Notes: a model not told the origin generated them from the sequence alone. Positions 16,087-63,611 are shown, numbered from the stretch's first letter. The stretch is 64,000 nt of DNA from Tubulanus polymorphus (GCF_964204645.1 NC_134028.1:14825653-14889652); one strand, 5' to 3'. Numbers and translations: made by a program.

Positions 16087-16238
16087 AGTAATAGCGATAA
16101 TAGGGGTTCAAGCCAAAGGTCGAACGGTCGAGCTCGTAAAAAATAAAAAATAAACTCTCGCACGCTAGAATTTATTTTTCATTTTTTACTCGCTCGCCCC
16201 TTCAACCTTTAACCTGAACCCCTATTATCCCTATTACT
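16087..16238. repeat. terminal imperfect hairpin of Maverick A (~150 bp)
   Basis: AGTAATAGCGATAATAGGGGTTCA...TGAACCCCTATTATCCCTATTACT; inner arms pair with mismatches around the CGCACGCT loop. Confidence 0.85.
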
Positions 16239-16319
16239 CTTAAAATATTCATATATATATGAATAAAATATAAATGAATAACTTCTAAAATCAATTTTAA
16301 TAAAGAATTTAGTATTAAA

Positions 16320-19300: not shown

Positions 19301-20357
19301 AAAATCATATTCATACAGAAAAGTTAATGGTAACTCAGGAAGATAAATATAATTATGTAGTACATCATAGAATGTTGAAGTTTTATCTAAAACAAGGAAT
19401 GATCCTAAAAAAAGGTACATAGATATATTTCATTCAGTCAATCTAAATGGTTCGAAAAATATATAGATTTTAACACCAAACAGAGAACTAAAGCTAAAAC
19501 TGATTTTGAGAAAGATTTCTTCAAACTAATGAAGAATGCATTCTATGGTAAGACTTGTGAAAATATTAGAAATAGAAATGATATCGAGTTTGTTAGTAAT
19601 GGTAAAAGAATAAGACATTTACAAACATATCCTAAGTTCATAGGTAACAGAATATTTGATGAAAATTTAGCTGCAGTTAAATTGAGGAGAACATCTGTGA
19701 AATTTAATAAACCAATTTATGTTGGAGCTACAGTTTTAGAAATATCAAAGTTATAATGTATGAATTCTATTATAACGTATTACAACCTCATTTTGGAGAA
19801 AAGCATATAGAAATCTTATATTTTGATACAGATTCTTACATATTAAAGATAAAACTAATAACATAACAGATGATTTAAAAACATTAAAACATCATTTTGA
19901 TTTTAGTAATTATCCTAAAGATCATGAATTGTTTAACAATGATAATAAAAAGGTGCCTGGTAAATTCAAAGATGAATTAGGAGGTGACGAAAAGATAGAA
20001 TTTATAGGTATTAAATCTAAAATGTATATTTATAGTACTAAAACTCATGAAGCTAAAAAGTTAAAAGGAATAACCAAAAGTGTAGTAGAAAAGAATATTC
20101 ATTTCAAAGATTACATCAATTGTATATTCAATGAAGAAGTTAGAAAACATAAGATGGGATGTTTAAGATCTGTGTACTACGAGATGTTTATTGAAGAGAT
20201 AGAAAAGGTTAGTTTGAACCCATTCGATGACAAAAGATATATTTTAGATGATGGAATTCATATAGTCGCGTATGGTTGCAATTTAGATGAATACTTTAGA
20301 TTTAAAAGAGAGGAAGAGAAAGAAAAGGAAATAATGAACAGGATTATAACGTGTTAA
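16320..20357 (+). pseudogene. polB: protein-primed family B DNA polymerase (Maverick A), intein-free, many stops and frameshifts
   Basis: DKCFLW/HYMW (OTU-like), RDHDHLNGKFRGAAH..CN, FHNLSGYD, FIDSYRF, YLKSDV, YIDANNLYG, KLMKNAFYGK, YFDTDS (~19818-19835), GKFKDE, KKLKG, FDDKR. Confidence 0.93.
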
Positions 20358-21733: not shown

Positions 21734-22073
21734 AGTAATTAGTAAATGGCGTTTTCAAACCAGAGGTCGAGAGGTCGAGACACCACTCATCACATCTAGG
21801 CTCTAGTGAGAACGGACGATTGCTCTGTGATACACATATACAGTGAGTGCGCGTAACAACAACTGCGCGTGGATAGATCGATACAGTGAGTCGCTACTGA
21901 GAACGGTTATTAACGCGTGTGCTATTACTGTAGTACAGTGATTGCGTGTCAACTGTGCCCGGATAAATAGATGCTGTGAGGCTTGAGAACGGTTAAGAGC
22001 GTGCTTGTTATATACAAGGGGAAGTAATCCCCACTCATCACCACAAGTAATTTTTTTTCCTTATAAATGGGAG
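21734..22073 (+). repeat. left TIR of Maverick B
   Basis: AGTAATTAGTAAATGGCG...CTTATAAATGGGAGA, highly similar to 27291-27634; preceded by TATGAT at 21728-21733. Confidence 0.9.
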
Positions 22074-25000
22074 AGAATAAGACAGAACAAATTGATGTTA
22101 ATGAAAATCAATATTATTGTCCTTATTGTAAAAAAATACATTAATAAATCTCAAAAATCGCGTCATGAAAAATCTTCAAATCATGTAAAACATGTTATAG
22201 ATTTTGAAACTTCAGAAAATTCCAATGAAAGAAAAGAACGATTAGAAAATATGAATGTGGATGAAATAAAATGTGAAGTTTGTAATGAATTTATAGTAAA
22301 AAGGAATTATAATAGACATCTCGAATCACAAAAACACCATCAAAATTTGAGTAATAATGTTTTAGATAAAGATTATTTCGATGATAAACCTCAAAAAGTA
22401 AAAAAACCAACTTCAAAAACTAAATCCATTTCAAATAAACCTTACATGGAAAATGTTAGAAATTATATTGATTCACTAGAAATAAAAGATACAATTGAAA
22501 TATTAGAAACATTACGTAGTAAAATTGGCCCTGCAGCTATTATATTTAGATTTTTTAAAGGTACAACAATAGAAGATTATAGTAAATTGAATGAAATAAT
22601 AGAATAAATACTAGATTTGATAACAGATGTTGAATATCCAAAAATTAGTATCTCTAGGAAAGTAAGTTTTTTAAAGTCAGAAGAGAAAATGGATTATAAT
22701 ATTCAAACACTCTCTGAAGAAATAATTTCAAAAACACAAATAAAAGAGAAGTTAGAAAAAATATTTAATGAATTTAAACGTCATATTAAAGAAAGATATT
22801 TTGAGGGTTCTGGTTTATCATTAAATGAAATTATATTTTTAGATTTAAATGTTTATAATACAAAAAGGAATAAAACATCAAAAAGTAAAACAATGTTTAA
22901 AAATGATTCAAACTTTACAACAGAAAAGGATATTAAAGCATCATCTTATATTAAATTACCATTTACAACTAAAGCAGTAATAAATGTTCAAAATGAAGAT
23001 AATAAATGTTTTCTATGGTCAATTATTAGTTGCTTACACCCAACAGAAGATATTACGCATAGTTAGAATAACAAATTACCGGAAATATGAAACATTATAT
23101 AAAATTGATCAATATCCAGTAACTATAAAAATGATACCCAAAATAGAAAAAATTAATAATTTAAAAATAAATGTATTCGAATTAATGCAATTACCAAAGA
23201 CAAAAGGTGAAAATATAAAAGATTATACATTGGAAGCTTTATATTTAACAGAATATTATGATGATGAAAATGCTATAGATTTGTTATATTACAAAAAAGA
23301 TGAAAATGAACATTATATGTGGTTAAAACAAATTGATTTATTCTTTAGAACAGAAAGTGATTTTAACAGTCATAAAATTTATCTATGTAGAAAATGTTTA
23401 TCTAAATTTAGAACTGAGAATGCGTTACTAAAACATAAAGAATTATGTGATAATAAAGATTTTTGCAAATTAATAATGCCAACAGAAAAAGATTATAAAT
23501 TGAAATTTACTAATCACTAATTTAAAAATATTGTTCCATTTGTAATTTATGGGGATTTTGAATCGTTGAATAAAGAATTAACTGATCAAGATAGAAAAGA
23601 AATATATAACAAAAAGCAATTATTAAAATCAATGGATAAAGGAAATGAATTAAATGAAGACACAACACAAGACCCGCCAATTGTAAATACAATTAAAAAG
23701 TTCATCAAAGAGCTGCTGCTTATGGAATTTACATCAAATCAAATTATCCCGAATTTTATGAAAGTCAATATATTTCTTTTAGAGGTGAAGATGTAGTTAA
23801 TGATTTTTGTGACAAAATGATTGAATTAGAAAGTGATTTTGCAAAATTATTAAACAAAAATAAAAGAATAGTTATGACAAAAGAAGATGAAATTGATTTT
23901 AATTATGCAACTCATTGTTGTTATTGTGAAAAACGTTTTTATTCATTTGATAAAAAAGTTAGAGATCATGATCATTTAAATTCAAAATATCGTGGAGCTG
24001 CTCATAAAGATTGCAATTTACAAGCTAAGAAAGTTAATTTCGTACCAATATTATTTCATAATTTATCAGGCTATGATACCCATCTATTTATAAAACAATT
24101 ATCGGGAAAATTGGGCGCAATTAATCAAGAAATAGAAGAATATAATGCTATGAATGGTGTAAATGTAAGAAAATATGATTTTAAACTATTAGCTAAAACA
24201 TCTGAAAATTATATTTCATTTCAATTTGGTTGCATTAGATTTTTAGATTCTTATAGATTTCTAGCAAGTTCATTAGATAATTTATCAAAAAGTTTAGTTG
24301 ATAATGATTTTGTTATAACTCGATATTATTATCCAAATGAACAAGATTTTAAATTATTGAGATATAAAGGTGCAATTCCTTATTCATTTTATAAAACACA
24401 CAATGATTTTAATGTAACAGAATTATTAAAAGATCAATTTTATGATCAATTAAAAGAGGAGTATGTGAAAGATGAAGTGTTCAATAGAACATTAAATATT
24501 TGGAACCATTTTAAGATGAAAAATCATGGTGAATTAGTTGATTTATATTTAAAATCAGATGTTATGATATTGGCTGACATATTTGAAAAATTTAGAGAAG
24601 TTAATTTAAATCATTTTAATGTTGATCCTTGTTATTGTTATTCAAGTCCTGGTTTAACCTGGCAATGTGGTTTAAAATATACAAATGTAGAATTAGATTT
24701 ATTAAAAGAACCAGACATGGTTTTATTATTTGAAAAATCAATTAGAGGTGGAATTAGTGGTGTTATGGGAGATAGGTATTCTAAAGCAAATGATGAATAT
24801 AAATTATTATATATTGACGCCAATAATTTATATGGTTGGGCAATGATGCAACCTCAACCATACAAAAATTTCATATCAACAGAAGTTGAAAATGATGATA
24901 AAACTGATTGGGAAAGCGCAATTGCGAGTTTAAAAGATGAAGCACCAATTGGTTATTTCTTTGTAGTTGATTTAGAATATCCTGAAAATATAAAGTTTAA

Positions 25001-26658
25001 AACAAGAAACTTACCTTATTGCCCAGAACATTTAACTGTAGATGATAGTTATTTAAGTGAATACCAGAGGAAAATAAAACCGAAAGATCATGTTTTTACA
25101 GAAAAATTAATACTTACTCAAAATAATAAATACAATTATATTGTTCATTATAGAATGTTAAAATTTTATCTAAAACAAGGAATGACATTAAAGAAAGTAC
25201 ATAGATATATTGAATTTAATCAATCGAAGTGCTTAGAAAAATATATAGATTTCAATACTCAACAGAGAACCATATCAAAAACAGATTTTGAAAAAGATTT
25301 CTTCAAATTAATGAATAATAGTTTTTATGGTAAAACATGTGAAAATATTAGAAATAGAAATGATATTGAATTAGTAAATAATTCTGAACGATTAAGACAT
25401 TTACAATCAAGTCCTAGACATTTAGGAAATAAAAGATTATTTAACATTTAAGATTATTTAACAGCAGTTAAATTAAAAAGAACGTCAATGAAATTTAATA
25501 AACCTATATTCATTGGTTCAACTGTTTTAGAAGTATCAAAATTATTAATGTATGATTTTTATTATAATGTTTTACAACCACTTTTTGGGGAAAAGCATAT
25601 TGAAATATTATATTTTGATTCTGTAACAGCTGACACCCCAATATTATTAAAATGTAATGATAAAATATTGATAAGAAGAATTTCAGAAATAATTCCAAAA
25701 CAAAATGAATGTTATATTTCATATGGTGAAAAAGAATTAATACAAATAAATGGTTTAATGGATGTTTGGACAAGAAATGGATGGAAAAAATTAAAGAATA
25801 TTATTAGGCATAAAACAAATAAGAAAATCTATAGAGTTAGAACTAAATTAGGGTTTGTAGATGTTACAGAAGATCATAGTTTAATTAAACGAAATGGTGA
25901 TGAAATAAAACCAATTGATATAAAAATTGGAGATGAATTATTACATAAAAAATTTTTTCCAAAGAATGAATCATATGTCATTTGATGAAATAATTGATAA
26001 TATTTATAATATAGAACCTGAAACATTAGAAGAAAAAGAATATTTTATCAAAGGATTTTTTATGGGAGATGGTTCAGCAGGTGTGTATAAATATGTTTGG
26101 GGTTATAAATATTGTTGGTATTTATGCAATCAAGATTTGATATTATTAGAAAGAATAAAGAAATATTGTGAAGAAGTTTATCCAAATAAAACATTTAAAA
26201 TCATGGATGTTATGAAATCATCAGCAGTTTATAGAATACTTGTAAATAATCCTAAAGATTTTACTATAAAATATAATGATGAATTCTATATTCATGCAAA
26301 AGTGAAAAGTAATACTTCAACAAAAGAAAAGATAGTTCCAGATTATGTATTAAATGCAAAAAAATAATTTAAAAAAATGGTTCTTCATTGGATTCTACGC
26401 AGCAGATGGTGCTAAAAAATTTACAAAGGATAAAAAGATAACCTTTGCACAGAAAGGAAAAGTTGCTATATCAGGGTTAAATATATTATGTAATTCATTA
26501 GGCTTCAATATGATTATTGGATTGATTAAATCTAAACCAAATTGCTTTAATTTAAGCCACAGAGAAAAAGATTTAACTGAAGAAGTTAAAGATTTATTTG
26601 AAATATATAACCCATCAGATTATGTTTATGATTTATCAATTGAAGATGGTACATTTAA
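22067..26658 (+). pseudogene. polB: protein-primed PolB of Maverick B, N-terminal part, intein-containing, frameshifted
   Basis: N-terminal zinc fingers, DNKCFLWS, YGDFES, RDHDH, FHNLSGYD, YIDANNLYG, KLMNNSFYGK, then ILYFD followed by the intein. Confidence 0.93.
25620..26658 (+). mobile_element. intein with LAGLIDADG homing endonuclease in PolB motif C (C-terminal end at 38125-38156, minus strand)
   Basis: Block A SVTADTPILLK, block B VDVTEDHSL, FIKGFFMGDG and FFIGFYAADG, KEKIVPDYVLN, block F YVYDLSIEDGTF, continuing NCGFPLICFN|TDS; two frameshifts. Confidence 0.9.
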
Positions 26659-26719
26659 AATTGAATCCAAAACATATACTCGGTCCAACAGTTATATTCA
26701 TTTATATAGTGAAAAAAAA

Positions 26720-27290
26720 ATACTCTTTACATCTTATAATTAATTCATAAATTATAGGAAAGTTATTCAAATCAATTAATTATCCATTATGATTTCTTAC
26801 TTCTAATCTAAAATTATTAAATTGAGGAATACAAGGTTTAAAATCACATTCTGTTAAATTATAATTTATTTGAGTTCCAAATTGTTTAACATTTTTTAGC
26901 GGTAAAATATTTAGTATACTAGAACTACAAATTGTTTCTTTAGTTGCTTCGAAAGTTTTTGTAGGATCGATTAAATTGCAATAAATATAAAATTGTGTAA
27001 AAGGTATTATATTTGAGATGCCTTCTGCGTTTCCAGTAACTGTAAGCGGTTTAATTCCTAACATTTTAGCCATTGGTTTGTTTACCATAAATTTATGTTG
27101 TTCATTAGATATCTTTATTCTTATTTTATTAGTACTATCAATTTTATTAAATTTAATTTCAAATACAGAAGTGCCCCCGATTTTCAACCGAGCTCTTCTA
27201 TTAATTTCCTGCGCTAATGATTCTAAATTATATAATCCTGGTTTTAAAAATAGATGAAACCATTTATCTTTATTTCTCATATAAATCATA
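26720..27290 (-). pseudogene. penton of Maverick A, C-terminal half (inverted)
   Basis: MIYMRNKDKWFHLFLKPGLYN... continues exactly where 21547-21733 stops; starts with the TSD TATGAT. Confidence 0.85.
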
Positions 27291-27634
27291 AGTAATTAGT
27301 AAATGGCGTTTTCATACCAGAGGTCGAGAGGTCGAGACACCACTCATCACAGCTAGGCTCTAGTGAGAACGGACGATTGCTCTGTGATACACATATACAG
27401 TGAGTGCGCGTAACAACAACAGCGCGTGGATAGATAGATACAGTGAGTCGCTACTGAGAACGGTTATTAACCCGTGTGCTATTACTGTAGTACAGTGATT
27501 GCGTGTCAGCTGTGCCCGGATTGATAGATGCTGTGAGGCTTGGGTGAGAACGGTTAATAGCGTGCTTGTTATATACAAGGGGAAGTAATCCCCACTCATC
27601 ACCACAAGTAATTTGTTTTCCTTATAAATGGGAG
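27291..27634 (+). repeat. right TIR of Maverick B (appears direct because of the inversion)
   Basis: Copy of 21734-22073; flanked by ATCATA at 27285-27290, the reverse complement of TATGAT. Confidence 0.9.
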
Positions 27635-27953
27635 ATAGAAAAGCATTCTTAACAACAATAAATAACAGAATAAAACCAGCAAAAAACAATTTGAAATAAA
27701 AAAGTTAGTTGATGTTACAAAATAAATTGAACATAAAATATTGAAATTAGAAAAGATAAAAACTAAATATGGAGAGAAAGTATCAGCTAATTTAAGCTAC
27801 TGCAATGTTAGTACATCGCGAGAATTTAAAGTATTTTTACCTGATAAATGGGTTTCATTGAGTACAGAGGAATTAAAAGATTTAGAAGGATTTAAAATAA
27901 TCTATCATGGAAAATATGAAGATGGCCATCATGATTTAGAAATTGTTGATTAA
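27628..27953 (+). pseudogene. small Maverick terminal ORF (frameshifted; intact at 60479-60805)
   Basis: Near-identical to the 108-aa ORF at 60479. Confidence 0.75.
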
Positions 27954-28128
27954 ATTTAAAAAAATAAATTAATAAAAATAATGAATATCTAGAATCCGAA
28001 ATGACTTATCTGGACAATCTAATTGCTCCGCATAGATAGACAAAAGTAGTGAGATGGTGCCGTACAGCACCCATATGGTGTTATTCAATTAATTAAAAAA
28101 ATTATTTTTTTGCTTTTTTTCTAAAATA

Positions 28129-28482
28129 TTAATCCATTTTTTTTATTATCAATTTTGGAATTTCAGAAGTATTTTCATTTTTGATAGCAGTTGTTTCAGA
28201 ATTATTAATATCATGAATTTTATTTGATTTCTTATACCAATTACACCCAATCAAAATGAATACAATTACAAATCCAACTGTAAAATATAGACATTTATCA
28301 AATATTCTATTATTAGAAGGAGTAGAAATAACAATATTTTCATCATTTTTATTAACATTTTTATTACTTATTTTTTCTTTTATAGCTTTTTTATATTCTT
28401 GTGATTTAATTCCTAATTGCCGAGACCATTCAATTTGTTTCTGAGTTCTCGGTTTTTTCTTCACTTCTTCCACCTTGTTCAT
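28129..28482 (-). CDS. small basic protein with one TM helix
   Basis: KKPRTQKQIEWSRQLG; LYFTVGFVIVFILIG; homologs at 51750-52112 and 61809-62177. Confidence 0.75.
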   Translation of the reverse strand: MNKVEEVKKKPRTQKQIEWSRQLGIKSQEYKKAIKEKISNKNVNKNDENIVISTPSNNRIFDKCLYFTVGFVIVFILIGCNWYKKSNKIHDINNSETTAIKNENTSEIPKLIIKKMD

Positions 28483-29020
28483 TTATTAAAGAAATATTTT
28501 TACTTTCAATATTTGAAAATGTTATAACTCCAGTTGATAATAATGTCATAAATCCACCTAATTGAAATGATAAATATCCAATCCATTTATTTAATTCAGT
28601 CATAACTAAATAATCATTTTTTAAATCAGCATATAATCTATTTTCATCTTGAATTGGTAGTATATAATTACATAATTTACTATAACCTTTTACTACATTT
28701 TCTGATATCGCGTCATTAATTCTAGCTTTTCTCGCGGCTTCATAAATCTTAAATAATCTAATAATTTCATCTGATTTCATTGTATCTAATTCATTATAAG
28801 TTAAATTTTTACCGACAAAATTTTTACATTTTCCAGATACTATTAATATTTCTAATTGATGTTTACAATAAAGATAATATTCATAATTATTATTTGTTGT
28901 AACATTATTTAAAGCACCATCATCTGGAGTTAATTTTGTTTCTGTTATTCCTAAATCATCTGAAGTTTTTTCAATTGGAACATCACAATTTTTAGATTTT
29001 CTTTTCTTTTCACCTCCCAT
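28430..29020 (-). CDS. conserved Maverick hypothetical protein with hydrophobic C-terminal segment
   Basis: Homologs at 52105-52713 and 62110-62715; TAAATG start. Confidence 0.75.
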   Translation of the reverse strand: MGGEKKRKSKNCDVPIEKTSDDLGITETKLTPDDGALNNVTTNNNYEYYLYCKHQLEILIVSGKCKNFVGKNLTYNELDTMKSDEIIRLFKIYEAARKARINDAISENVVKGYSKLCNYILPIQDENRLYADLKNDYLVMTELNKWIGYLSFQLGGFMTLLSTGVITFSNIESKNISLINEQGGRSEEKTENSETN

Positions 29021-29051
29021 TTATATAACAAACAAATTAGTTGTGTTGTTG

Positions 29052-29325
29052 CAACTAGAATTCAACTAGAATGTAACTAGAATTGAACTAGATTAACAAG
29101 CTAGTTGAAATATTGTTGTTTTTATTTATTTCTTGTTAAATCTAGTTGATTTTTGTTCCAACTACCAATAACTAGAATTCAACTAGAATGTAACTAAAAA
29201 TATACTAGATTAACAAGCTAGTTAAAATATTGCTGAATTTTATTTGATTTTTGTTTCAAATACCAATAACTAGAATTCAACTAGAATGTAAATAAATATG
29301 TAATAGATTAACAAACCTGTTGAAT
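29052..29325. repeat. intergenic AACTAGA iteron array
   Basis: AACTAGAATTC/AACTAGAATGT/AACTAGATTAACAAG repeated in about 3 blocks; same array at 62750-63000. Confidence 0.8.
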
Positions 29326-29389
29326 TTAAATAAATTCATATTGAAATGGGTGTTGTAATCTAAATAATAATTTTGATCTTTTATTATTT

Positions 29390-31140
29390 TTGGAATATGT
29401 TGCAATGGTAAAAAATATAATTATACCTTTAATAGATCTTCTTGGGAAGTTAATATTCTCATTAATTATTTCATCATTTGCATTAAAAGTTACAGTTTTA
29501 AATTTATCAATATAATCATATAATAATGAAAATCCTTGATTGTATTGAGTTTGAATTGTGTTAGCAATATTTTCATTAGTTACTGTGTTATATTCTAAAC
29601 ATATATTCGATAATTTATAACCCATATCTTTAACAACGCTAGATAATACAATTTCATTTACAGGAGCAAATGTTATCTCAAATATAATATCTTCTTGAAT
29701 TACATATTTATATAAAGGTGCATTATTATCTATCAATTCAAAGTCTAATGGAATTTTATATTTGCTTCCATAAATCTTTTTTATCAAATTATCCGTAGCA
29801 TTAGTTATTATTGCATTATTAGCTTCTGATGTTTATTATGGTTTTCTGATTGGATGCCTTGAAATATCATATTATTTTCTTTTTTTAACCTTAAATCTTT
29901 ATAATGCATAAATAGATTATATTCATCTAATGAGAAAACTGTTTCTGGACCAATCTTTATAGTTAATTTTTTAATCAAATATCTCCCAACATTATCGACA
30001 ACATAATTATTATCATGACCAGTTACTTTTATATCGGCTGATAAATAAATACTATTTGGAACATAAAAAGTATTTTGTGTAAGACGTTTTCGTATCGAAT
30101 ATTCCCCCTATCGGAAAAACGACAATGTCGATGCGTAAAAGCGCTCAAATCGTCAGGAAAAGCACTTTTCGGACCGAAAACGTCGTTCAGCGCGAGAAAA
30201 GACGTTTTCGTATCAAATATTCCCCCTATCGGAAAAACGACAATGTCGATGCGTAAAAGCGCTCAAATCGTCAGGAAAAGCACTTTTCGACGCGAAAACC
30301 TCGTTCAGCGCGAGAAAAGACGTTTTCGTGTCAAATATTCCCCCTATCGGAAAAACGACAATGTCGATGCGTAAAAGCGCTCAAATCGTCAGGAAAAGCA
30401 CTTTTCGACGCGAAAACGTCGTTCAGCGCGAGAAAATACGTTTTCGTATCAAATGTTCCCCCTATCGGAAAAACGACAATGTCGATGCGTAAAAGCGCTC
30501 AAATCGTCAGGAAAAGCACTTTTCGACGCGAAAACGTCGTTCAGCGCGAGAAAAGACGTTTTCGTATCAAATATTCCCCCTATCGGAAAAACGACAATGT
30601 CGATGCGTAAAAGCGCTCAAATCGTCAGGAAAAGCACTTTTCGACGCGAAAACGTCGTTCAGCGCGAGAAAATACGTTTTCGTATCAAATATTCCCCCTA
30701 TCGGAAAAACGACAATGTCGATGCGTAAAAGCGCTCAAATCGTCAGGAAAAGCACTTTTCGACGCGAAAACGTCGTTCAGCGCGAGAAAAGACGTTTTCG
30801 TATCAAATATTCCCCCTATCGGAAAAACGACAATGTCGATGCGTAAAAGCGCTCAAATCGTCAGGAAAAGCACTTTTCGACGCGAAAACGTCGTACAGCG
30901 CGAGAAAAGACGTTTTCGTATCAAATATTCCCCCTATCGGAAAAACGACAATGTCGATGCGTAAAAGCGCTCAAATCGTCAGGAAAAGCACTTTTCGGAC
31001 CGAAAACGTCGTTCAGCATATAAAGTTTTATCGGGATTAATATTTGAAGGATTATGAGTGATTATATGATGTGATCTTTCTGCTTTAATAGCATTAGATA
31101 TTCTAGAAATCTTAGAAGGACTTATATAACTCCCACTCAT
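29390..31140 (-). pseudogene. major capsid protein (double jelly-roll), interrupted by satellite, C-terminus deleted and fused to ATPase tail (29326-29390)
   Basis: MSGSYISPSK..IKAERSHHIITHNPSNINP; VVDNVGRYLIKKL; YGSKYKIPLDFELI; LSNICLEY; INENINFPRRSIKGI. Tail RSKLLFRLQHPFQYEFI equals the ATPase end at 63000. Confidence 0.75.
30081..31018. repeat. 118-bp tandem satellite, about 8 near-identical copies
   Basis: GACGTTTTCG recurs at 30083, 30201, 30319 and onward; much higher GC than flanks. Confidence 0.97.
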
Positions 31141-31156
31141 TTATTTAACAAAAAGA

Positions 31157-32624
31157 TTAATTATTTTTTTCTTTATTATTTTTTCTTGATATCTTTTTGA
31201 TATCATATTCACTAACCCAAAAATAATAGCACTTACAACTGTAATTAAAAATAAAATAATATGTTCAGCAGCAAAGTTACGAATATTACCTACAGATTTC
31301 AATATAAAACCATCAATTGATGCAATAATTCCTGGTAAAGCTGCAGCAGATTTTTTAGATAGTTCCCATAAATATTTTGCTAATTTCTTTAAACCATCCT
31401 TAACTTTATCTTTTATAGAATTATTATCATTCGGGGTTTATCCGGTTTACTGGGAGTAGGAGTAGATTTCAAAGAATTTGATATTGCTAAACCAATTGTT
31501 GTAAATAACATAGTTACAGCTGTTAGAATTGAAAGAATTGTTATTCCTTCTAATTTAAATAATAACTTTATTCTATCTTTTAATGATATTTCAGAATTTG
31601 GTTTAATCAACAGATCTTTATAAATAACTTTTAATCTATTAATATTATAATCATATGATTTTAATAATAATTTAATTTCTTCTTTCTGTACTTCTAAATT
31701 ATCTTTTAAATTATAAATTTCTTTTTCTAATCGTAATTCTTTTTGCCTATATTCTATTTCATCAATTACTCGATGATCTAAATCAGACTTTAATTGTTCT
31801 ATTTCTTTATTTTTATCAGTTAATTCTTTTTCTAAAAATCTAATTTTAAAATCTCTTATACTTTTATTATGTGCAATTTTATCAGCTTCATTTCTTATAC
31901 TAATAATTTCTCTAATTGCTTTATCAGAAAATATATTTAAATCTTCTAATTGTTGATCTGTTGCATCAATTAATCCATTCGGTAAAAGTTTTTCAATTGG
32001 AACTTTATTTGATTTAAGTTTACTAGTTTTGGAAGTTATATTCTGTTCAGAAGTTGTTTCTGTTTCTGATTTCTTTTTGATTATTTCAAATAATTCATTA
32101 ATTCTTTGTTTAAATACGTCTATATCATTACCAGTTAATTCTTGTTTTATAACATCAGTTATTACATTACTATTACTAATTCTTTTAATTCTATCTGGAT
32201 CTAAATCACTCAAAGTTGATTTTGTTAATATTTTATTTTTATTATTTTTATAAGTGATATCAATATAATAATCACCTTTCAAATGATAATACCATTTACC
32301 ATTATCTAAAAATTTTAATTGATCTGCTAAAGGTCCAACGTCTTCATCATTTATGTTAAGTTTAGAATTTTCAATTATACGTTCTAATTTAGGTATTTTG
32401 TTTAAATTATCTAAATCGTGTTTTACTAAATCTGGGTCTAAATTTTCATGATTTAATTGTGATTCTGCATTTTTAATATAATCAGGCATATTTAAATTAT
32501 TACTATATTCTGGCTCATTACCGTCATTAAAACTTGTTTCACTAAAATCAGGTTGTTGTTCATCAGTTATGCCAGGTTCATCAAAATTATCCATTCCAAT
32601 ATCTTCTCCACCTTCTACATCCAT
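31157..32624 (-). pseudogene. coiled-coil protein with C-terminal hydrophobic helices (Polinton-associated), frameshift near 31425
   Basis: LKDRIKLLFKLEGITILSILTAV...; the next frame gives KKLAKYLW...AAALPGIIASI...IILFLITVVSAIIFGLV. Truncated duplicate at 39740-40508. Confidence 0.7.
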
Positions 32625-32640
32625 TTATATAATAAAAAAA

Positions 32641-34027
32641 TTAAAATTTAAAATATAATATTCCTCCCATAACAATTCCTATACAAGTTAAAGCTAATTT
32701 AGTATTTTCATGGGATTTATTATCATTATCAATTTTAATTATATCATGTTGAATATTATCAGTTTTAATATGTTCTGTAGTATTGCAATCTTTTATTTTT
32801 GAATCATAATCCAATTTAATATTTTTAGTTTTAGTTTCAGTTGATTGAATATGTTTTTTATTTTTTTCACCTTCCATTAATTTTGGAGCAGTAATAATCT
32901 TTTTATTTATATCATTTAATCCAAATGAATTATTTATTGTTGCAGTTTTAATTAGATTATTATAACCAATTATATTTCCCAATTTTAGTACTAAATCATT
33001 AGAAATAATTAATAGATTAGGGCCTATACAATAATTTAATCTAATATGTGATTTATCTAAATAATTTTGATATCTTACAATGTTTTCTGGAATAGATCTA
33101 TTTTTATCATTATGAATTGAATCTTCAAATAATACTTTGAATTGTTTCTGTGTATCAAATGATGTATTTAAATTTCCAATTATTGGGGATCTTGTTTCAA
33201 CTTGCGCACCTAAAATACATATCAAATAAGTTCTAATAGATTGATTTATTCTTTGTATACCTGATTTAGTAAAACCTTCACTATTTTCTAAAATAAAATA
33301 AACCCAACCATTATTGTTTTCTTGTTTTAAATGATCATAAAATTTCGGTAATTTATTGAAATATAACTTCTAAATCCTTTGTTTCTATTTTACCATAACC
33401 TAATTTATTATTATAGATATTATAAAAGCTATTAGATGGTATGGGAAGTGTACAATATGCTGCAACATTTTCAGGGCAAGGAAGTGATCTTATTGTTCCA
33501 ATTTTTGTTCTAAAATCAGAATTATTTATATCTATATTAAATTCATTGCAAATTTTATAAAACTTTGATAAATTAATATTATTATCTAATTCTTTAAAAT
33601 ATCTAGATCCTGGTAAAGCGCACTCTAATTCATTTAATATTATTCTGATTTGAAAGTATGTATGAAATCTAAATAAACTTTGAATTAATTTATATTTAGA
33701 ATTATTCAAATGATCATTCCAACTAATTCCATAACCTGTTGTTGCACAATAAACAGCAAAATTTAATTGGTTCTGCCAATACTTCATATTAGATTTTAAT
33801 AACCATTGTTTTTCATCTTTCAATTTTTTAAAATTAATTAAATATACATGAAATATATTTTCCATCTTTGCATTAAAATTATTAGTTTCAGTAACATAAA
33901 TTTCTAAATTAGTTAATGAATCTAAAACTTCATTTCTATATGTAATATCTTTATTAAAATCTATTGCAGGAATATTATATTTAATTGATTTATTATATTG
34001 GAAAGCTTTTGGAAAACTATCTACCAT
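32641..34027 (-). pseudogene. conserved Polinton protein (frameshifted copy of 40525-41913)
   Basis: A 2-bp deletion near 33366 splits the 462-aa frame. Confidence 0.85.
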
Positions 34028-34043
34028 TTATATAATAAAAAAA

Positions 34044-34469
34044 TTAATAATTTATTAATTCTTTTAATAATTTATCTTGTTCTTCAACTGTTATATGACC
34101 ATTTAAACTTATTATATAATCTAGTGTATTTTTTAATTTATTAATTTCTTTTATATTCGTTTTAATTTTTTCTTTATTACTTTTTATATTCAATTTTGAA
34201 CTTATACCGGTTAAAACACTTGATGATAATCCTAACACACCAATTGATATAGCTAAAGGTGTTAATGGACTGAAAATTGCTAGAAATGTTATTACAGAAC
34301 TAATTGTAACCGAACCACTTATAATCAAATAATATATAATTCTAGATTTTAAATATTTTTTCTTTTTAACTTTTAAATCATTTTCAAATTCTAATATTTG
34401 TTTTTCTAAATATGTTTTTAATTTAGTTCTATTTATATCATGAGGAATAATATCAATATTATCATCCAT
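34044..34469 (-). CDS. two-TM-helix small membrane protein
   Basis: Long hydrophobic hairpin between basic coiled segments; copies at 41930-42355, 39022-39444, 46908-47330. Confidence 0.75.
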   Translation of the reverse strand: MDDNIDIIPHDINRTKLKTYLEKQILEFENDLKVKKKKYLKSRIIYYLIISGSVTISSVITFLAIFSPLTPLAISIGVLGLSSSVLTGISSKLNIKSNKEKIKTNIKEINKLKNTLDYIISLNGHITVEEQDKLLKELINY

Positions 34470-34488
34470 TTATTTAGCAAAAAAATTA

Positions 34489-34911
34489 CTAATTAGTAAA
34501 CTTATAAGCAACAAATATGACAATAACTGTTCCGCCTAAAATCCAAATTATTTCATATTTCTGTTGTTCTTTACTTGGGGTATAATAATCTGATAATTTA
34601 GGTTTGTATAGATGTAATTTTTCTTTATTGCTTACCGCGTTATATAAACTCATTGCAGCATCGACTGATTGAAAATCTCTATGTGAAATCTTCTGATCAT
34701 ATAATTCCTTGTTAATATAATCCATATAGTTTTGCCTCTTTTCTCTATATTCTTCTGCAGCTTTATTATATTTTTCTAATGCTAAGTTATGTCTTCTTTG
34801 TTCTCCTAATGAACTATTTTTATCAATATGCTTGAATAAATATCAACCACCAGTAAATGCCAAAGCGTTAACAATTGCCGATCCTATAATAGTTATAATT
34901 GCAGATGCCAT
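34489..34911 (-). pseudogene. small protein MASAIITIIGSAIVNALAFTGG... with C-terminal TM (frameshift near 34845)
   Basis: N-terminus is intact in paralog 38721-39002; C-terminus is ORF 34489-34725. Confidence 0.7.
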
Positions 34912-34935
34912 TTATTTAGTGAAAAAATTATGCAT

Positions 34936-35157
34936 TTATATAATAGGAATATATTTTTGTTTTTCTAAATAATCAATAGTTAAATTAGATAAAGTAACTG
35001 CTAATGTTAATTTTAAGATATCATTGATATCAAATCTATCAACATTAACAATTCCCATTTTAAATACTTTTTTTAATACCATTGAATAACCAACAGTTCC
35101 AACTGATAGTAATGCTACATTATATAATCCAGTTATTATCCACTTATTATCACTCAT
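34936..35157 (-). CDS. 73-aa hydrophobic protein
   Basis: TAAATG start; duplicate at 42822-43043; paralog at ~38467-38697. Confidence 0.65.
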   Translation of the reverse strand: MSDNKWIITGLYNVALLSVGTVGYSMVLKKVFKMGIVNVDRFDINDILKLTLAVTLSNLTIDYLEKQKYIPII

Positions 35158-35517
35158 TTATTTACCAAAAAAATTACTATCTTCAATATATTTAGTAGTC
35201 TTATTTATAATTATTTCAACATTTATTTCATTACTAGTTTCATGATTATCATATATTTTGGTTAATATGTTTTTAATATCATCTATGATAAAATCTTCAT
35301 CTAATTCATAAAATCTTAAAGATTCTCTAATTAAATTAGTAATCTTTTCTACATTTAAAGTTTCTTTATCTATTGTTTTTTCATACTCAAATGTTGTTTC
35401 ATTAGAAAATGCAATATTTTTGATATGTATAATTACATCATTAATGTTAAATTTCATTTTTTTCTCGCGTTTAAAATCAAATCCAAAACATATACTCGGT
35501 CCAACAGTTATATTCAT
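35158..35517 (-). CDS. 119-aa hypothetical Maverick protein
   Basis: TAAATG start; duplicate at 43044-43403; Maverick A paralog split in three pieces by the inversions. Confidence 0.7.
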   Translation of the reverse strand: MNITVGPSICFGFDFKREKKMKFNINDVIIHIKNIAFSNETTFEYEKTIDKETLNVEKITNLIRESLRFYELDEDFIIDDIKNILTKIYDNHETSNEINVEIIINKTTKYIEDSNFFGK

Positions 35518-35533
35518 TTATATAATGAAAAAA

Positions 35534-36292
35534 TTACTCTTTACATCTTATAACTAATTCATAAATTACAGGAAAGTTATTCAAATCAATTAAATATCCA
35601 TTATGATTTCTTATTTCTAATTTAAAATTATTAAATTGAGGAATACAAGGTTTAAAATCACATTCGTCTAAATTATAATTTATTTGCGTTCCAAATTGTT
35701 TGACATTCTTCAATGGTAAAATATTTAATATACTAGAATTACAAATTGTATCTTTAGTTGCTTCAAATGTTTTTGTAGGATCAATTAAATTGCAATAAAT
35801 ATAAAAATGTGTAAAAGGTATTATATTTGAATTACCGTCTACGTTTCCTGTAACAGTTTGTGGTTTAATTCCTAACAGTTTAGCTAAAGGTTTCCTTACC
35901 ATAAATGCATGTTTGCTTTCATCATCTAACTTTATTTTTATTTTATCAGAACTATCACTTTTTATAAATCTAATTGAAAATTTATATTCACTTCCAAGTT
36001 TTAGTCGTGCTCTCCGATTAATTTCTTGGGCTAATGTTTCTAAATTATATAACCCTGGTTTTAAAAATAGATGAAACCATTTATTTATAATTCTAATATG
36101 AATTAAAAAGACTCTATGTTCAAGAGTTTTATCTGATATATTATAAAAAGAGTTACATAAACTTATATTAACTAATTTTAAATCTACACAATTCTTAAAT
36201 TCTCTATCTAATTGAACTAGTAAATTATGTGATTTATAATTTGTAAGTTTTCTACAATCAACAAATATTCTGTATTCTTTTAATTCACCCAT
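35534..36292 (-). CDS. minor capsid protein (penton) of Maverick B
   Basis: SFYNI, PGLYNLETL, LAKLLG, FYIYCNLI, ILNILPL, EIRNHNGYLIDLNNFPVIYEL: typical Polinton penton motifs. Confidence 0.8.
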   Translation of the reverse strand: MGELKEYRIFVDCRKLTNYKSHNLLVQLDREFKNCVDLKLVNISLCNSFYNISDKTLEHRVFLIHIRIINKWFHLFLKPGLYNLETLAQEINRRARLKLGSEYKFSIRFIKSDSSDKIKIKLDDESKHAFMVRKPLAKLLGIKPQTVTGNVDGNSNIIPFTHFYIYCNLIDPTKTFEATKDTICNSSILNILPLKNVKQFGTQINYNLDECDFKPCIPQFNNFKLEIRNHNGYLIDLNNFPVIYELVIRCKE

Positions 36293-36350
36293 TATTTATA
36301 ACACAAAAAAATTACCTCTCATTACCACTAGTAATTTTTTTCCCTAATAA

Positions 36351-37672
36351 ATGGATGAGAAGATACCATGCGAAATTTGTGGTGAACTTCTAAGAAAAAG
36401 TAATATGGCTCGACATATTAAAAAACATGATGAAAATTATAAACCCCTAAACTAAACTGCCCAAAATGTAATAAATCATTCTTAAGAAATTATGTTAAAA
36501 AACGTTCAGAGAAGTGTAAAATTAATAACGCAACGGTTAATGTTGATAGTAACGAAAGTAATAGTAATTCTGTTGAAGTTGAACCTGAAATTATTTGGAA
36601 AAGAGCTTTCTTATTCTATGACAAGGATAATATAAAAGGTTATATCTGCGAGCCTTGTCGAATGAAATTTAGTCCTGAAAATATAGAAGATTGGGAGAAT
36701 CATCAATTTCGTAAAATACATATAGATAAAATTTCTTATAAATTTGAAAATGAATTCAATGAAAGAAAAAATAATATATTAGAAAAAATGAAATATGAGA
36801 AAACGTTACCAGATAATAAAGAAACAGTTGAAAAGTTAGAAAAACAATATAATGAATTAACAAGAAAAACATATTGTAAATATTGTAAATTGATTATTAC
36901 AACAAGTAATTCAAATCTACATAATAGAACAATAAAACATAAAGAAAACGTAAGAAAATACCAAGAGCTTAATGAAGATCTATTACCAATAAATTATAAA
37001 CAAAAATGCCCACAATGTAATTATGCGACCTTAAGGCAATAAGGTACTTTGTTATTTTTTAATGAATGTGGATGGCAAAAGAATTTATGGGGTGAAGAAA
37101 AAACTAGAGATTTTCTCATAGAACCAAAATTAAATTATCTAGATGAAATTTTTAAAATATTTTCTATAGAAGATCATACACCAGAATATATGCAATGGCT
37201 TGAAAAAATGAAAATGATAGAAAATAAAAATGGTGAAATAACTAAAAAAGATATTATAAAAACAATTATTCCATCAACATTTAACACAAAACAAAAGAAA
37301 ATGTATTTATATTTATTATTAACGATTATTATGAAAAACCTAAATTAACAGAAGAAGATATGGAAAATATAAAAAAAACATTCAAACAAATATTAATGTC
37401 ATTTGGAAAATAGAATAACAGATTCAATTAATTATGAATTCTTTTTAAATAAGATTGTAAATTATTTAAACATCGATATTATAATTCCATTTGACGAATT
37501 AACAAACAAAAAGAAACAAAGTGAGCGATATGAAATGTGGTACAAGATAGAACTTTATTTAAATGAGAAAAATGAAATGGAAGAACCTAAACAAATTATA
37601 CAAGAACAATTAAATGAAAATGAAGAAGCCAATAGTGATTTCGAGTATGATGATATTGATTTTCTGTTTTAA
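36351..37672 (+). pseudogene. multi-zinc-finger protein (fragmented); duplicate at 44237-45558
   Basis: CEICG..MARHIKKH, CEPC..H...H, CKYCK..H.RTIKH, CPQC; several frameshifts. Confidence 0.65.
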
Positions 37673-38156
37673 TGGCCATAAGGTAATGTTTTTATACCAT
37701 CATCTAAAATATGCCTTTTATCATCAAATGGATTCAAACTAGTTTTTTCAACTTCATTTATGTACATCTCGTGATTTTCTGATCTTAAACAATTCATTTT
37801 ATGTTTCATAACAATTGAGTTATATAAACACTTTATATAATCTTGAAATTCTATATGTTTATCAACCACATGTTTTGTTATTCCTTTTAACTTTTTAGCT
37901 TCATGATCTTTTGTTCTGTAACTATACATTTTACTTCTTATCCCAACAAATTCAATCATTTCATCACCCCCTAATTCATCTTTAAACTTACCAGGAATCT
38001 TTTTATTATCATTGCTAAATAGTTCATGATCTTTGGGATAATTGCTAAAATCAAAATGATGTTTTAATGTTTTTAAATCTTTTGTTATGTCATTTGTCTT
38101 GATTTTTAGTATGTAACTGTCAGTATTGAAGCAAATTAATGGAAATCCACAGTTAA
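37669..38156 (-). pseudogene. polB: intein C-terminus plus C-extein of Maverick B pPolB (inverted); duplicate at 45555-46042
   Basis: NCGFPLICFN|TDSYILKIK...FDFSNYP...GKFKDE...RSKMY..KKLKG..FDDKR. Confidence 0.9.
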
Positions 38157-39741
38157 AGATTCTCTAATTAAATTAGTAATCTTTTCTACATTTAAAGTTT
38201 CTTTATCTATTGTTTTTTCATACTCAAATGTTGTTTCATTAGAAAATGCAATATTTTTAATATGCGTAATTACATCAGTGCTGTTAAATTTCATTTCTTT
38301 CTCATGTTTAAGATTTTATGAATTAGATGAAGATTTTATCATTGATGATATTAAAAGAATAATAACTGAAATATATGAAAATGAAACTAATAATACTATA
38401 AATGTTGAAATAATTATAACTAAGATAAATAAATATTTTGAAGATAGTAATTTTTTTGAAAAATATATGAGTGATAATAAGTGGATAATAACTGGATTAT
38501 ATAATGGAGCCTTACTATCAGTTGGAACTGTTGGTTTTTCAATGGTATTAAAAAAGTATTTAAAATGGGAAGTGTTAATGTTGATAGATTTGATATATGA
38601 TATATGATTATGATATTTTAAAATTAACGTTAGCAGTTACTTTATCTAATTTAACTATTGATTAATGGAAAAACAAAAATATATTCCTCCTATATAAATG
38701 CGTAATTTTTTGTTAAATAAATGGCATCTGCAATTATAACTATTATAGGTTCGGCAATTGTTAACGCTTCAGCATTTACTGGTGGTGGTTATTTATTTAA
38801 GCATATTGATAAAAATGGTTCATTATCAGAACAAAAAAGACTTAACTTAGCATTAGAAAAATATAATAAAGCTGCAGAAGAATACAGAAAAAAGAGACAA
38901 AATTACATGGATTATATTAACAAAGAATTATATGATCAGAAGATTTCACATAGAGATTTTCAATCAGTTGATGATGCAATGAGTTTATATATAATAAATT
39001 AGTAATTTCTTTTCTAAATAAATGGATTATAAAGTTGATAATATTGATATTATTCCTCATGATATAAATAAAACTAAATTAAAAACATATTTAGAAAAAC
39101 AAATATTAGAATTTGAAAGTGACTTAAAGATAAAAAAGAAAAAATATTTAAAAAGTAAAATTATCTATTATTTTATTATCAGTGGTTCAGTTAAAATTAG
39201 TTCTGTAATAACATTTCTAGCAATATTCAGTCCATTAACACCTTTAGCTATATCAATTGGTGTGTTAGGTTTAAGTTCAAGTGTTTTAACTGGTATAAGT
39301 TTAAAATTAAATATAAAAAGTAATAAAGAAAAAATTAAAACTAATATAAAAGGAATTAATAGATTAAAAAATACACTAGATTATATAATAAGTTTAAATG
39401 GTAATATAACAGTTGAAGACCAAGATAGATTATTAAAAGAATAAATAAATTATTAATTTTTTAATTATATAAATGGTAGATAGTTTTCCAAAAGCTTTTC
39501 AATATAATAAATCAATTAAATATAATATTCCTGCAATAGATTTTAATAAAGATATTTCATATAGAAATGAAGTTTAAAATTCATTAATAAATTTAGATAT
39601 TTATGTTACTGAAAGTAATAATTTTAATGTAGAGATGGAAAATATATTCAATGTTTACGTAATTACTTTTAAAGATTTAAATGAGGCAAAACAATGGTTA
39701 TTAAAATCCAATATGAAATATTGGCAGAACCAATTAAATTT
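38153..39741 (+). pseudogene. Maverick A structural-gene cluster (diverged paralogs of 33770-35470), degraded; second copy 46039-47934
   Basis: Same gene order as B in the opposite orientation (119-aa, 73-aa, MASAII.., 140-aa, MVDSFPK..) with stops. Confidence 0.8.
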
Positions 39742-54761: not shown

Positions 54762-55016
54762 ATATTGATTTTACATGTTGGACAGTAGTACTTCTTATTT
54801 GCTTCCATTTTAACACTAAATTTTTTATTAAAATTGATTTTAGAAGTTATTCATTTATATGTTATTCATATATATGAATATTTTAAGAGTAATAGGGATA
54901 ATAGGGGTTCAGGTTAAAGGTTGAAGGGGTGAGTGAGTAAAAAAATGAAAAATAAATTCGAGCGTGCGAGAATTTATTTTTTATTTTTTACGAGCTCGAC
55001 CGTTCGACCTTTGGCT
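54762..55016 (-). repeat. inverted copy of Maverick A terminus (16111-16366), outer 24 bp missing
   Basis: Reverse-complement match including the hairpin and the first ~15 codons of pPolB. Confidence 0.9.
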
Positions 55017-63572: not shown

Positions 63573-63611
63573 ATTATGAGGCTCAAATATAAATAATTCC
63601 TTATTTATTTA

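What the first reader, a model, noticed from the sequence alone, without database searches (positions are those of the whole stretch)
25620..38156. Full LAGLIDADG intein in the catalytic motif of a Polinton pPolB within an animal genome, beside an intein-free allele
Seen: ILYFD|SVTADTP...TEDH...GFFMGDG...GFYAADG...VYDLSIEDGTF at 25620-26658, continuing in frame at 38156-38125 (-) as NCGFPLICFN|TDS, about 355 codons. Maverick A has an empty YFDTDS site at ~19818. Known: Ser-start inteins at the YGD|TDS site occur in RNA-primed PolBs of archaea and giant viruses such as Mimivirus, and inteins are essentially absent from animal nuclear genes. Inferred: transfer from a co-infecting large DNA virus into a protein-primed polymerase, and a homing system among endogenous Mavericks. 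The penultimate residue is Phe rather than His. This copy is frameshifted.
Basis: partly seen in the sequence, partly recalled or inferred. Interest (0 to 1): 0.9.

Follow-up and report, generated by a model that had tools for sequence, protein, structure and literature searches.

The report
Intein in an animal Polinton polymerase
A virus-like Polinton element in what is very likely an animal genome carries, in the active site of its DNA polymerase, a giant-virus-type intein (a protein segment predicted to cut itself out of the enzyme and to copy its own DNA into empty sites), although a published survey lists no inteins in animal genomes.

Summary
Confirmed. A roughly 355-codon LAGLIDADG intein (Ser start, TEDH, two endonuclease motifs, Asn|Thr end) sits at YFD|TDS of a protein-primed PolB in a 15.8-kb Polinton with terminal repeats and a 6-bp target duplication, nested in an intein-free Polinton. 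This copy has two frame breaks and an inversion; reads from a separate study of the same species show uninverted copies, copies without the frame breaks, and empty sites in the same family. Six more Polinton-type polymerases elsewhere carry the intein, five unbroken; one folds like PI-PfuI/TliVMA (pLDDT 91). The seven form one clade (100/100) beside giant-virus PolB inteins and are patchy on the polymerase tree; one sits in a polymerase with no alignable likeness to the window's. In one family, all 10 fixed differences between occupied and empty copies lie around the site, as co-conversion predicts. Corrections: the neighbouring empty gene is a 72%-identical sister family, not an allele; penultimate Phe is unremarkable here. 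Splicing, cutting and transfer direction are untested; the host is judged animal from flanking transposons. Ten literature searches found no such intein; this scan had not noted it on other DNA.

The parts
21734..22074 (+). Left terminal inverted repeat of Polinton B (the intein carrier), starting AGTA; preceded by the 6-bp target duplication TATGAT at 21728-21733
22260..25619 (+). N-extein of the protein-primed PolB (PF03175 E 4e-20, weak endonuclease VII match); several frame breaks and a stop at 25449-25451; ends ILYFD
25620..25967 (+). Intein N-terminal splicing region: Ser1, SVTADTP, TEDH; frame break at its end
   Evidence: 70% identity to P0001 intein 1-117
25954..26358 (+). First half of the LAGLIDADG endonuclease (GFFMGDG at 26053-26073); second frame break at its end
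26366..26658 (+). Second half of the endonuclease (GFYAADG at 26390-26410) and first part of the C-terminal splicing region (VYDL); ends at the inversion junction, 5-nt overlap 26654-26658
38125..38157 (-). Last codons of the intein (…CGFPLICFN), moved away by an 11.5-kb inversion
37669..38124 (-). C-extein of the polymerase, starting TDS
45555..46043 (-). Second copy of intein end plus C-extein inside the 7.9-kb tandem duplication (31856-39741 / 39740-47627, 99.8%)
27291..27635 (+). Other terminal repeat of Polinton B (96% to the left one; same orientation now because it lies in the inverted block), with the second copy of the target duplication at 27285-27290
38153..38314 (+). 162-bp segment of element A inverted in place next to the large inversion
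16570..20357 (+). Broken, intein-free pPolB of Polinton A (sister family, 72% DNA identity); empty site YFD|TDS at 19827|19828
16087..16366 (+). Left terminal repeat of Polinton A (partner 54762-55016, 96%); element B is inserted in one of A's genes
54762..55016 (-). Right terminal repeat of Polinton A; A's packaging ATPase and rve integrase lie at 50032-51503
6135..10326 (-). Flanking Gypsy retrotransposon with SCAN-domain gag and integrase placed before reverse transcriptase (host-context evidence)
14073..15710 (+). Flanking FLYWCH-MULE transposase (host-context evidence)

Best explanation
This is a broken copy of a LAGLIDADG intein of the pol-c type, inserted at the catalytic YxD|TDS motif of a Polinton protein-primed DNA polymerase, in a family whose unbroken members are predicted to splice out of the polymerase and likely spread by homing between Polinton copies in animal genomes. 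Likely mechanism: the polymerase is made as a precursor; Ser1, the TxxH motif, the block-F Asp, the last Asn and the extein Thr would excise the intein and restore the YxDTDS active site (inferred from conserved residues and the predicted fold). The freed intein would cut the empty site in other Polinton copies, integrated or replicating, and repair from an occupied copy would bring in the intein with some flanking sequence (inferred from the co-conversion tract). The family most likely entered Polintons once, long ago, from the RNA-primed PolB of a giant virus, then passed down, was lost and re-invaded, and jumped at least once to an unrelated class of Polinton polymerase. The copy in this window is dead: its intein has two frame breaks and an inversion, and its polymerase has further breaks.
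For: Unbroken Polinton-type polymerases with the intein at the same site: P0001, P0008, P0126, P0137, P0138, plus L001 with one stop. TIGR01445 intein N-terminus matches 5 of 5 unbroken inteins, LAGLIDADG_3 passes its cut-off in 5 of 5. Model of the P0001 intein: pLDDT 90.8, pTM 0.90; best PDB matches TliVMA, PhoVMA, PI-PkoII, PI-PfuI, PI-SceI inteins (E 6e-17 to 3e-11). Ser1, Thr84, His87, Asp151, Lys236, Asp261, Asp336, Asn354 invariant in 7 of 7; endonuclease as conserved as the splicing halves (50% against 53-55% mean identity); all seven are full length, while many giant-virus relatives are 200-260 aa mini forms. Reads of a separate study, X6: intein depth 168-249 against 218-294 on the upstream extein; 162 of 216 and 128 of 169 reads do not share the two frame breaks; at the C-junction 24 reads run on into the intein body, 28 into a divergent intein-like end, 24 straight into the N-extein (empty). 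Patchy distribution: 2 of the 120 nearest polymerase clusters are occupied; 6 changes for 7 occupied among 44 rows, as in shuffles. P0126 family (7 occupied, 6 empty, of 15 listed among 136 members): 10 of 10 fixed differences lie within -7..+44 aa of the site among 1,191 columns; the occupied flanks match other families better (14 of 17) than their own empty copies (9 of 17); outside the tract occupied-empty identity is 99.0% and 7 of 9 informative sites show all four combinations. Tree: Polinton inteins one side of a branch, 99 SH-aLRT among 74 rows, 100/100 among 23 rows, and joined with the FNxG giant-virus group at 98/95. P0008's extein has no significant alignment to the window's (best E 0.45) while its intein is 46% identical.
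Against: No splicing, cutting or expression was observed. Intein_splicing passes Pfam's gathering score in only 1 of 5 unbroken proteins. The trees are unrooted; in the two larger quick trees the Polinton clade was not placed beside the FNxG group. The AU test does not reject a tree with P0008 outside the other six (p 0.12). The tract in the P0126 family could come from one import followed by element expansion and ordinary recombination. DNA at giant-virus sites differs from the Polinton sites at 7-13 of 24 bases (13 loci), a large gap for direct homing. The host is identified as animal only from flanking transposons; the hosts of P0001, P0008, P0126, P0137, P0138 and L001 are unknown. Loose ends were assigned by eye and counts come from about 12% of one run.
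Confidence: 0.75

Rival explanations
1. The intein is real and splices, but no longer homes: it was gained once and rides along with Polinton transposition; occupied and empty copies coexist through loss, drift and ordinary recombination between copies.
For: Among the related polymerases the intein tree pairs (window+P0001, L001+P0126, P0137+P0138) follow the extein tree. One import plus expansion could give the P0126 tract; general recombination also gives four-gamete sites.
Against: Endonuclease is full length with both catalytic Asp and the Lys kept in 7 of 7, at the same identity as the splicing halves. Presence in an unalignable polymerase class (P0008) needs at least one homing-like jump.
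Confidence: 0.15
2. The window is not animal nuclear DNA: it comes from a protist or other co-sequenced eukaryote, so this is an intein in a protist Polinton, still new for pPolB but not for animal genomes.
For: No named host gene lies in the window; the organism label is coded. Inteins in endogenous viral polymerases are known from algae and a labyrinthulid (PMC10710043, section 8).
Against: The flanks hold a SCAN-gag Gypsy with integrase before RT (this Gmr1-like type is animal by my recall) and a FLYWCH-MULE whose nearest clusters are commonest in rotifers, nematodes and arthropods. The intein is abundant in whole-genome reads of a separate study under the same species label.
Confidence: 0.06
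3. The intein arose in or came early to Polinton-like protein-primed polymerases, or came from archaea or phages, and the giant-virus inteins are sisters or recipients rather than donors.
For: Trees are unrooted; at the midpoint the 23-row tree separates Polinton inteins from all others.
Against: The family is far more diverse in RNA-primed PolB and topoisomerase II of giant-virus type: none of the 133 new proteins among the best 150 representatives was a Polinton-type polymerase by blastp; 79 of 80 metagenome loci and 80 of 80 viral loci matched at 29-42% while the one Polinton locus matched at 48%.
Confidence: 0.1
4. The join between 26658 and 38157 is an assembly artefact or chance, and the insert is a decayed fragment rather than a whole intein.
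For: The window holds a 99.8% 7.9-kb tandem duplication that may be a mis-assembly.
Against: The pieces map end to end on an unbroken relative, and 24 reads of X6 and contigs of X1 and X2 continue from the C-piece into the intein body. Whether the inversion is real or mis-assembled, whole inteins exist in the species.
Confidence: 0.02

Closest known systems
Mimivirus PolB intein (pol-c allele; Ogata et al. 2005, PMC549080; passages read) and other giant-virus PolB inteins
   Same: Same site (YGD|TDS motif), Ser start, Asn|Thr end, about 350 aa, LAGLIDADG domain; 35-42% identity to giant-virus-type relatives.
   Different: Host is a protein-primed PolB (PF03175) of a 16-kb integrating element, not an RNA-primed PolB (PF00136); flanks vary (YFD, YMD, YLD, YGD, SSD, ASD); multi-copy in a nuclear genome.
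Inteins in endogenous viral DNA polymerases of Klebsormidium, Tetrabaena and Hondaea (Gallot-Lavallee et al. 2023, PMC10710043; sections 3 and 8, passages and two held supplements searched)
   Same: Virus-derived polymerase inteins on nuclear scaffolds; viruses as intein vectors.
   Different: Those hosts are algae and a labyrinthulid; no mention of animals, Polintons or protein-primed polymerases in the text or the held supplements; here occupied and empty copies coexist in a multi-copy family.
HNH and VSR nuclease insertions in Polinton pPolB2 (Jeong et al. 2023, 10.1101/2023.08.22.554363, passages; Krupovic et al. 2024, PMC11161782, one passage)
   Same: Nuclease domains inserted in Polinton polymerases; Krupovic et al. 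suggest in one sentence that such insertions result from intein invasions.
   Different: Those are HNH or VSR domains with no splicing domain described ('intein' and 'LAGLIDADG' occur 0 times in Jeong et al.); here a complete Hint plus LAGLIDADG intein sits in motif C.
Fungal VMA1 (PI-SceI) and Prp8 inteins; archaeal PI-PfuI, PI-PkoII, TliVMA
   Same: Same two-domain fold; homing by cut and gene conversion.
   Different: Those home between alleles of one cellular gene; this one would home between dispersed copies of a mobile element.
Inteins of invertebrate iridoviruses (Green et al. 2018, PMC5784728; passages and supplement rows)
   Same: Related-looking PolB inteins exist in large DNA viruses that infect animals, a plausible meeting place.
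   Different: Free viruses, RNA-primed PolB, Cys start in the two rows seen; that survey lists 0 inteins for Metazoa and viral inteins in four large-virus families plus unclassified viruses.

Membership tests
Class 1 intein with LAGLIDADG endonuclease | In-frame insertion absent from homologues of the host protein | tested here: met
   Unbroken in P0001, P0008, P0126, P0137, P0138; absent in 118 of 120 nearest clusters. The window's own copy is out of frame by later damage.
Class 1 intein with LAGLIDADG endonuclease | N-terminal nucleophile (Ser/Cys), block B TxxH, block F Asp, terminal Asn, +1 Ser/Thr/Cys | tested here: met
   S1, T84, H87, D336, N354 invariant in 7 of 7, +1 Thr.
Class 1 intein with LAGLIDADG endonuclease | Penultimate His (common, not universal) | tested here: not met
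   Phe in the window; His 4, Ser 1, Lys 1, Phe 1 among the seven; His in only 120 of 318 relatives.
Class 1 intein with LAGLIDADG endonuclease | Hint fold enclosing a two-motif LAGLIDADG domain | tested here: met
   Predicted model of P0001's intein and Foldseek matches; profile search of PDB sequences. The window's broken copy itself was not folded.
Class 1 intein with LAGLIDADG endonuclease | Self-splicing and site-specific DNA cleavage | not testable with these tools
   No assay; indirect population signs only.
pol-c intein allele family | Insertion at YxD|TDS of motif C in a family B polymerase and closest kinship to inteins at that site | tested here: met
   Site; nearly all best hits are YGD|TDS inteins. 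Archaeal pol-c inteins were not in the trees.
Polinton/Maverick | Protein-primed PolB | tested here: met
   PF03175, E 4e-20, 72.5 bits against cut-off 25.8.
Polinton/Maverick | Terminal inverted repeats starting AG, 6-bp target duplication, 15-20 kb (features recalled) | tested here: met
   About 345-bp repeats starting AGTA, TATGAT duplication, about 15.8 kb.
Polinton/Maverick | rve integrase and A32-type packaging ATPase | tested here: inconclusive
   Present in element A (50032-51503) and in a close sister copy of B's right end (63000-63998); in B itself only the ATPase tail remains near 29330.
Polinton/Maverick | Double jelly-roll capsid gene | tested here: inconclusive
   Candidate ORF 29329-29832 gave no Pfam or PDB sequence match; not folded.
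Hedgehog/Hint domains of animals | Hint domain at a protein's C-terminus, no endonuclease, no extein ligation at a conserved active site | tested here: not met
   Internal insertion with endonuclease and both splice junctions; best matches are inteins.

The most novel reading that the evidence does not exclude
Animal genomes host a living intein family: a giant-virus-derived homing intein that spreads among the many dispersed Polinton copies of a germ line, crosses between Polinton families and even between the two unrelated polymerase classes, and drives the active-site codons of empty copies to resistant variants. It would be the first intein in a protein-primed DNA polymerase, and the first true inteins in animal nuclear DNA.
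Probability: 0.55. Interest if true: 0.88.

Novelty: new variant of a known kind. Interest (0 to 1): 0.78.

Why it matters
The main survey of eukaryotic inteins counts none in Metazoa and speaks of their absence from metazoan genomes (PMC5784728). This family puts complete inteins, many times over, into what is very likely animal nuclear DNA, through an endogenous virus. It widens the host range of the pol-c intein from RNA-primed to protein-primed polymerases, which share little beyond the catalytic motif, and so shows an intein crossing between two viral lineages, implying that Polintons and giant viruses met in one cell. Because occupied and empty copies coexist by the dozens in single families, with a visible conversion tract, it makes two open questions testable on existing assemblies: how inteins colonise distant sites, and whether homing can work between dispersed copies in an animal genome. 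It also means that Polinton replication in these families depends on protein splicing.

Tried and rejected
No whole genome is held for the window, so copy numbers and host genes could not be searched. No RNA holder listed. The marine metagenome run X5 held only short pieces at low depth; not used. Single-copy depth was not measured, so read depth gives no copy number. Pfam on the window's fragments stayed under the cut-offs. The search of 50% representatives gave 3,096 hits but no new full-length Polinton host among the best 150; one 190-aa fragment (P0345) resembles the P0126 type. Viral contigs gave no Polinton host among 80 loci. The Atlas gave only leads under 0.9 for the intein region, mostly Nucleocytoviricota. 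A careful 72-row tree did not finish; the 23-row careful tree used 7 Polinton rows and 16 others picked from the 72. Rows dropped: inteins under 300 aa, near-duplicates (65% identity filter; 253 to 182, then 74 rows), two long branches and the degenerate P0042. The idea that the FNxG giant-virus group is the sister is supported only in the small tree. Capsid candidate: no match. Rejected: penultimate Phe as a special feature; element A as an allele of B; Hedgehog-type Hint. Literature: ten searches (intein with Polinton, Maverick, protein-primed, adintovirus, polintovir-, metazoa and others) and finds in ten papers; 'intein' occurs 0 times in Starrett et al. 2021 (PMC8502044), Jeong et al. 2023 and a 2026 survey of small eukaryotic DNA viruses (10.64898/2026.10.13.758929). 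Subscription papers, Repbase Reports, InBase and bioRxiv supplements were not searchable; only 2 supplementary files of PMC10710043 are held, so its datasets may not be fully covered.


Full report
Observation. After ILYFD at 25619 the polymerase frame continues as SVTADTP, with TEDH, then GFFMGDG (26053-26073) and GFYAADG (26390-26410) in two further frames, and VYDLSIEDGTF near 26656. The last intein codons (NCGFPLICFN) and the TDS-led rest of the polymerase are on the - strand from 38157 down to 37669, and again at 46043-45555 in a 7.9-kb tandem duplication. The two parts share five bases at the junction. An unbroken relative maps onto them end to end. The insert is about 355 codons.

Anatomy. 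Self-comparison and the junction prints resolve the layout. Element B, the carrier, has terminal repeats of about 345 bp (21734-22074 and 27291-27635, 96% alike) that start with AGTA and are flanked by the duplication TATGAT; it is about 15.8 kb and is inserted in a gene of element A, whose own terminal repeats are at 16087-16366 and 54762-55016. An 11.5-kb inversion has one end in the intein and the other in element A, with a 162-bp inversion beside it. The polymerase matches PF03175 (E 4e-20). Integrase and packaging ATPase are in element A and in a sister copy at 63000-63998; B has lost them. Element A's polymerase is intein-free but only 72% identical in DNA, so it is a sister family; its site equals B's flanks in 12 of 12 bases on the 5' side and 8 of 12 on the 3' side.

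Host. No genome is held and the organism is coded. The flanks carry a Gypsy element with a SCAN-domain gag and integrase before reverse transcriptase, a type I recall from animals, and a FLYWCH-MULE transposase whose nearest clusters are wholly eukaryotic and commonest in rotifers, nematodes and arthropods. I put an animal host at above 90%, by inference.

It is an intein. The first 121 residues found 158 proteins; the best are Polinton-type polymerases with the same insert. With further searches the set is P0001, P0008, P0126, P0137, P0138 (unbroken, 337-354 aa inteins) and L001 (one stop). The window's intein is 62% identical to P0001's and 41-48% to the others, 41% or less to anything else. 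TIGR01445 matches 5 of 5 unbroken inteins; LAGLIDADG_3 passes its cut-off in 5 of 5; Pfam's Intein_splicing passes in 1 of 5 and scores E 6e-7 to 1e-5 in the rest. The predicted structure of P0001's intein (pLDDT 90.8) matches TliVMA, PhoVMA, PI-PkoII, PI-PfuI and PI-SceI best. Splicing residues and the endonuclease's two Asp and one Lys are invariant in all seven, and the endonuclease is as conserved as the splicing halves. The penultimate Phe is ordinary for the family: His is found in only 120 of 318 relatives.

The family in this species. Raw reads of a separate study (X6, about 12% read) cover the intein at depth 168-249 and the upstream extein at 218-294 at 88% likeness; about three quarters of reads do not share either frame break (162 of 216; 128 of 169). 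At the C-junction, 24 reads run on into the intein body, 28 into a divergent intein-like end, and 24 directly into the N-extein; contigs of X1 and X2 (one sample, possibly the window's source) also show the uninverted form (loose ends assigned by eye). So the damage is particular to some copies, and occupied and empty sites coexist in the family. Copy number is not known, as single-copy depth was not measured.

Signs of homing. Of the 120 nearest full-length polymerase clusters, 2 are occupied; the closest relatives of the window's polymerase (68-69%) are empty. On an extein tree of 44 rows the 7 occupied rows need 6 changes, no fewer than shuffles. In the P0126 cluster (136 members, 15 listed, 7 occupied and 6 empty usable) exteins are 94-99% alike, yet all 10 fixed differences between the two states fall within 7 residues before and 44 after the site; the occupied flanks match other families at 14 of 17 positions and their own empty copies at 9 of 17. 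Outside that tract occupied and empty copies are 99.0% alike, against 99.3% and 98.8% within groups, and 7 of 9 informative sites show all four combinations. This is what co-conversion from a donor family gives; one import followed by expansion and ordinary recombination would give it too. The empty copies carry three different altered sites, which fits escape from cutting but is untested.

Origin. The seven Polinton inteins form one side of a branch in all three trees (99; 100/100). All other close relatives lie in RNA-primed PolB or topoisomerase II of giant-virus type. A giant-virus group that shares the FNxG-PLI ending joins them at 98/95 in the 23-row careful tree, but not in the two larger quick trees. 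P0008's polymerase has no significant alignment with the window's, yet its intein groups with the window's and P0001's (98/94; the alternative is not rejected, p 0.12): either way the intein crossed between two distant polymerase classes. The direction giant virus to Polinton rests on the far greater diversity on the giant-virus side, not on a root. Site DNA differs at 7-13 of 24 bases between 13 giant-virus loci and the Polinton sites, so the first jump needed a tolerant enzyme or a non-homing accident; Ogata et al. raised the same problem for Mimivirus and archaea (PMC549080, passage).

Mechanism. Shown: position, residues, predicted fold, family structure, coexistence of both states. Inferred: class 1 splicing restores YxDTDS; the endonuclease cuts empty copies; repair from an occupied copy carries intein and flanks over. 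The copy in this window can do neither.

What is known. Green et al. 2018 (PMC5784728; passages and supplement rows) list 0 inteins for Metazoa, write of their absence from metazoan genomes, and find viral inteins in four large-virus families, invertebrate iridoviruses included. Gallot-Lavallee et al. 2023 (PMC10710043; two sections, passages, two supplements) report inteins in endogenous viral polymerases of two algae and a labyrinthulid. Krupovic et al. 2024 (PMC11161782; one passage) suggest that HNH and VSR insertions in Polinton polymerases stem from intein invasions, but the paper behind that remark describes no splicing domain. Ten searches found no report of an intein in a Polinton or protein-primed polymerase; subscription papers, Repbase and InBase were out of reach. 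This scan's earlier notes held nothing alike by words, place or sequence.

Verdict. A real member of the pol-c intein kind in a new class of host gene and, very likely, a new host kingdom: new variant of a known kind, interest 0.78. The activity of unbroken members, the named hosts and the direction of transfer remain open.

Noticed in passing
P0004, P0031, P0032, P0047, P0061, P0087, P0359, P0369, P0380: Inteins of the same family sit in topoisomerase II-type proteins of giant-virus kind at DQD|TDG or DAD|TDG, a D|TD site like the polymerase's; some proteins hold two or three. A second case of this family crossing to a non-homologous gene with a look-alike site.
   Followed up: partly
P0126 cluster (P0230-P0243): 136-member family on contigs of 0.06-1 Mb; among 15 listed, 7 occupied and 6 empty; the empty ones carry three different active-site variants, including Cys in place of Thr (YTD|CDS). 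YMD|CDS is also common in other families (27 of the nearest 120 clusters).
   Followed up: yes
window 21734-27635 within 16087-55016: The intein-bearing Polinton B is inserted, with a perfect 6-bp duplication, into a gene of the intein-free Polinton A; nesting brought occupied and empty polymerases within 6 kb.
   Followed up: yes
window 31856-47627: 7.9-kb tandem duplication at 99.8% identity; may be recent or an assembly artefact.
   Followed up: no
window 29963-31088: 118-bp tandem repeat, about 8 copies, 43% GC in a 23% GC element, lying beside the truncated capsid-like ORF.
   Followed up: no
window 20657-21085 (+) and 53050-53682 (-): Two related HNH-like ORFs (ELDHV/HIDHV motif; weak HNH_4 match) near the ends of element A, 67% alike in DNA.
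   Followed up: no
window 60040-64000: Start of another Polinton copy, 92% like B's right end, that still has the ATPase and the integrase-chromodomain gene which B has lost.
   Followed up: partly
window 3158-5084 (-): An OTU-like protease ORF (PF02338, E 2e-8) and a neighbouring unassigned ORF between short repeats; origin not examined.
   Followed up: no
P0401: A close relative of the window's polymerase (55%) is labelled as a Sulfurimonas protein in UniRef; probably binning contamination.
   Followed up: no
P0137, P0138: Their motif C reads SSD|TDS and ASD|TDS, without the usual Tyr, yet the intein is at the same place.
   Followed up: no
earlier finding e1-8583675 (another genome): An unchecked note of this scan describes a group I intron in a flatworm Polinton; if right, animal Polintons carry self-splicing elements of both kinds.
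   Followed up: no
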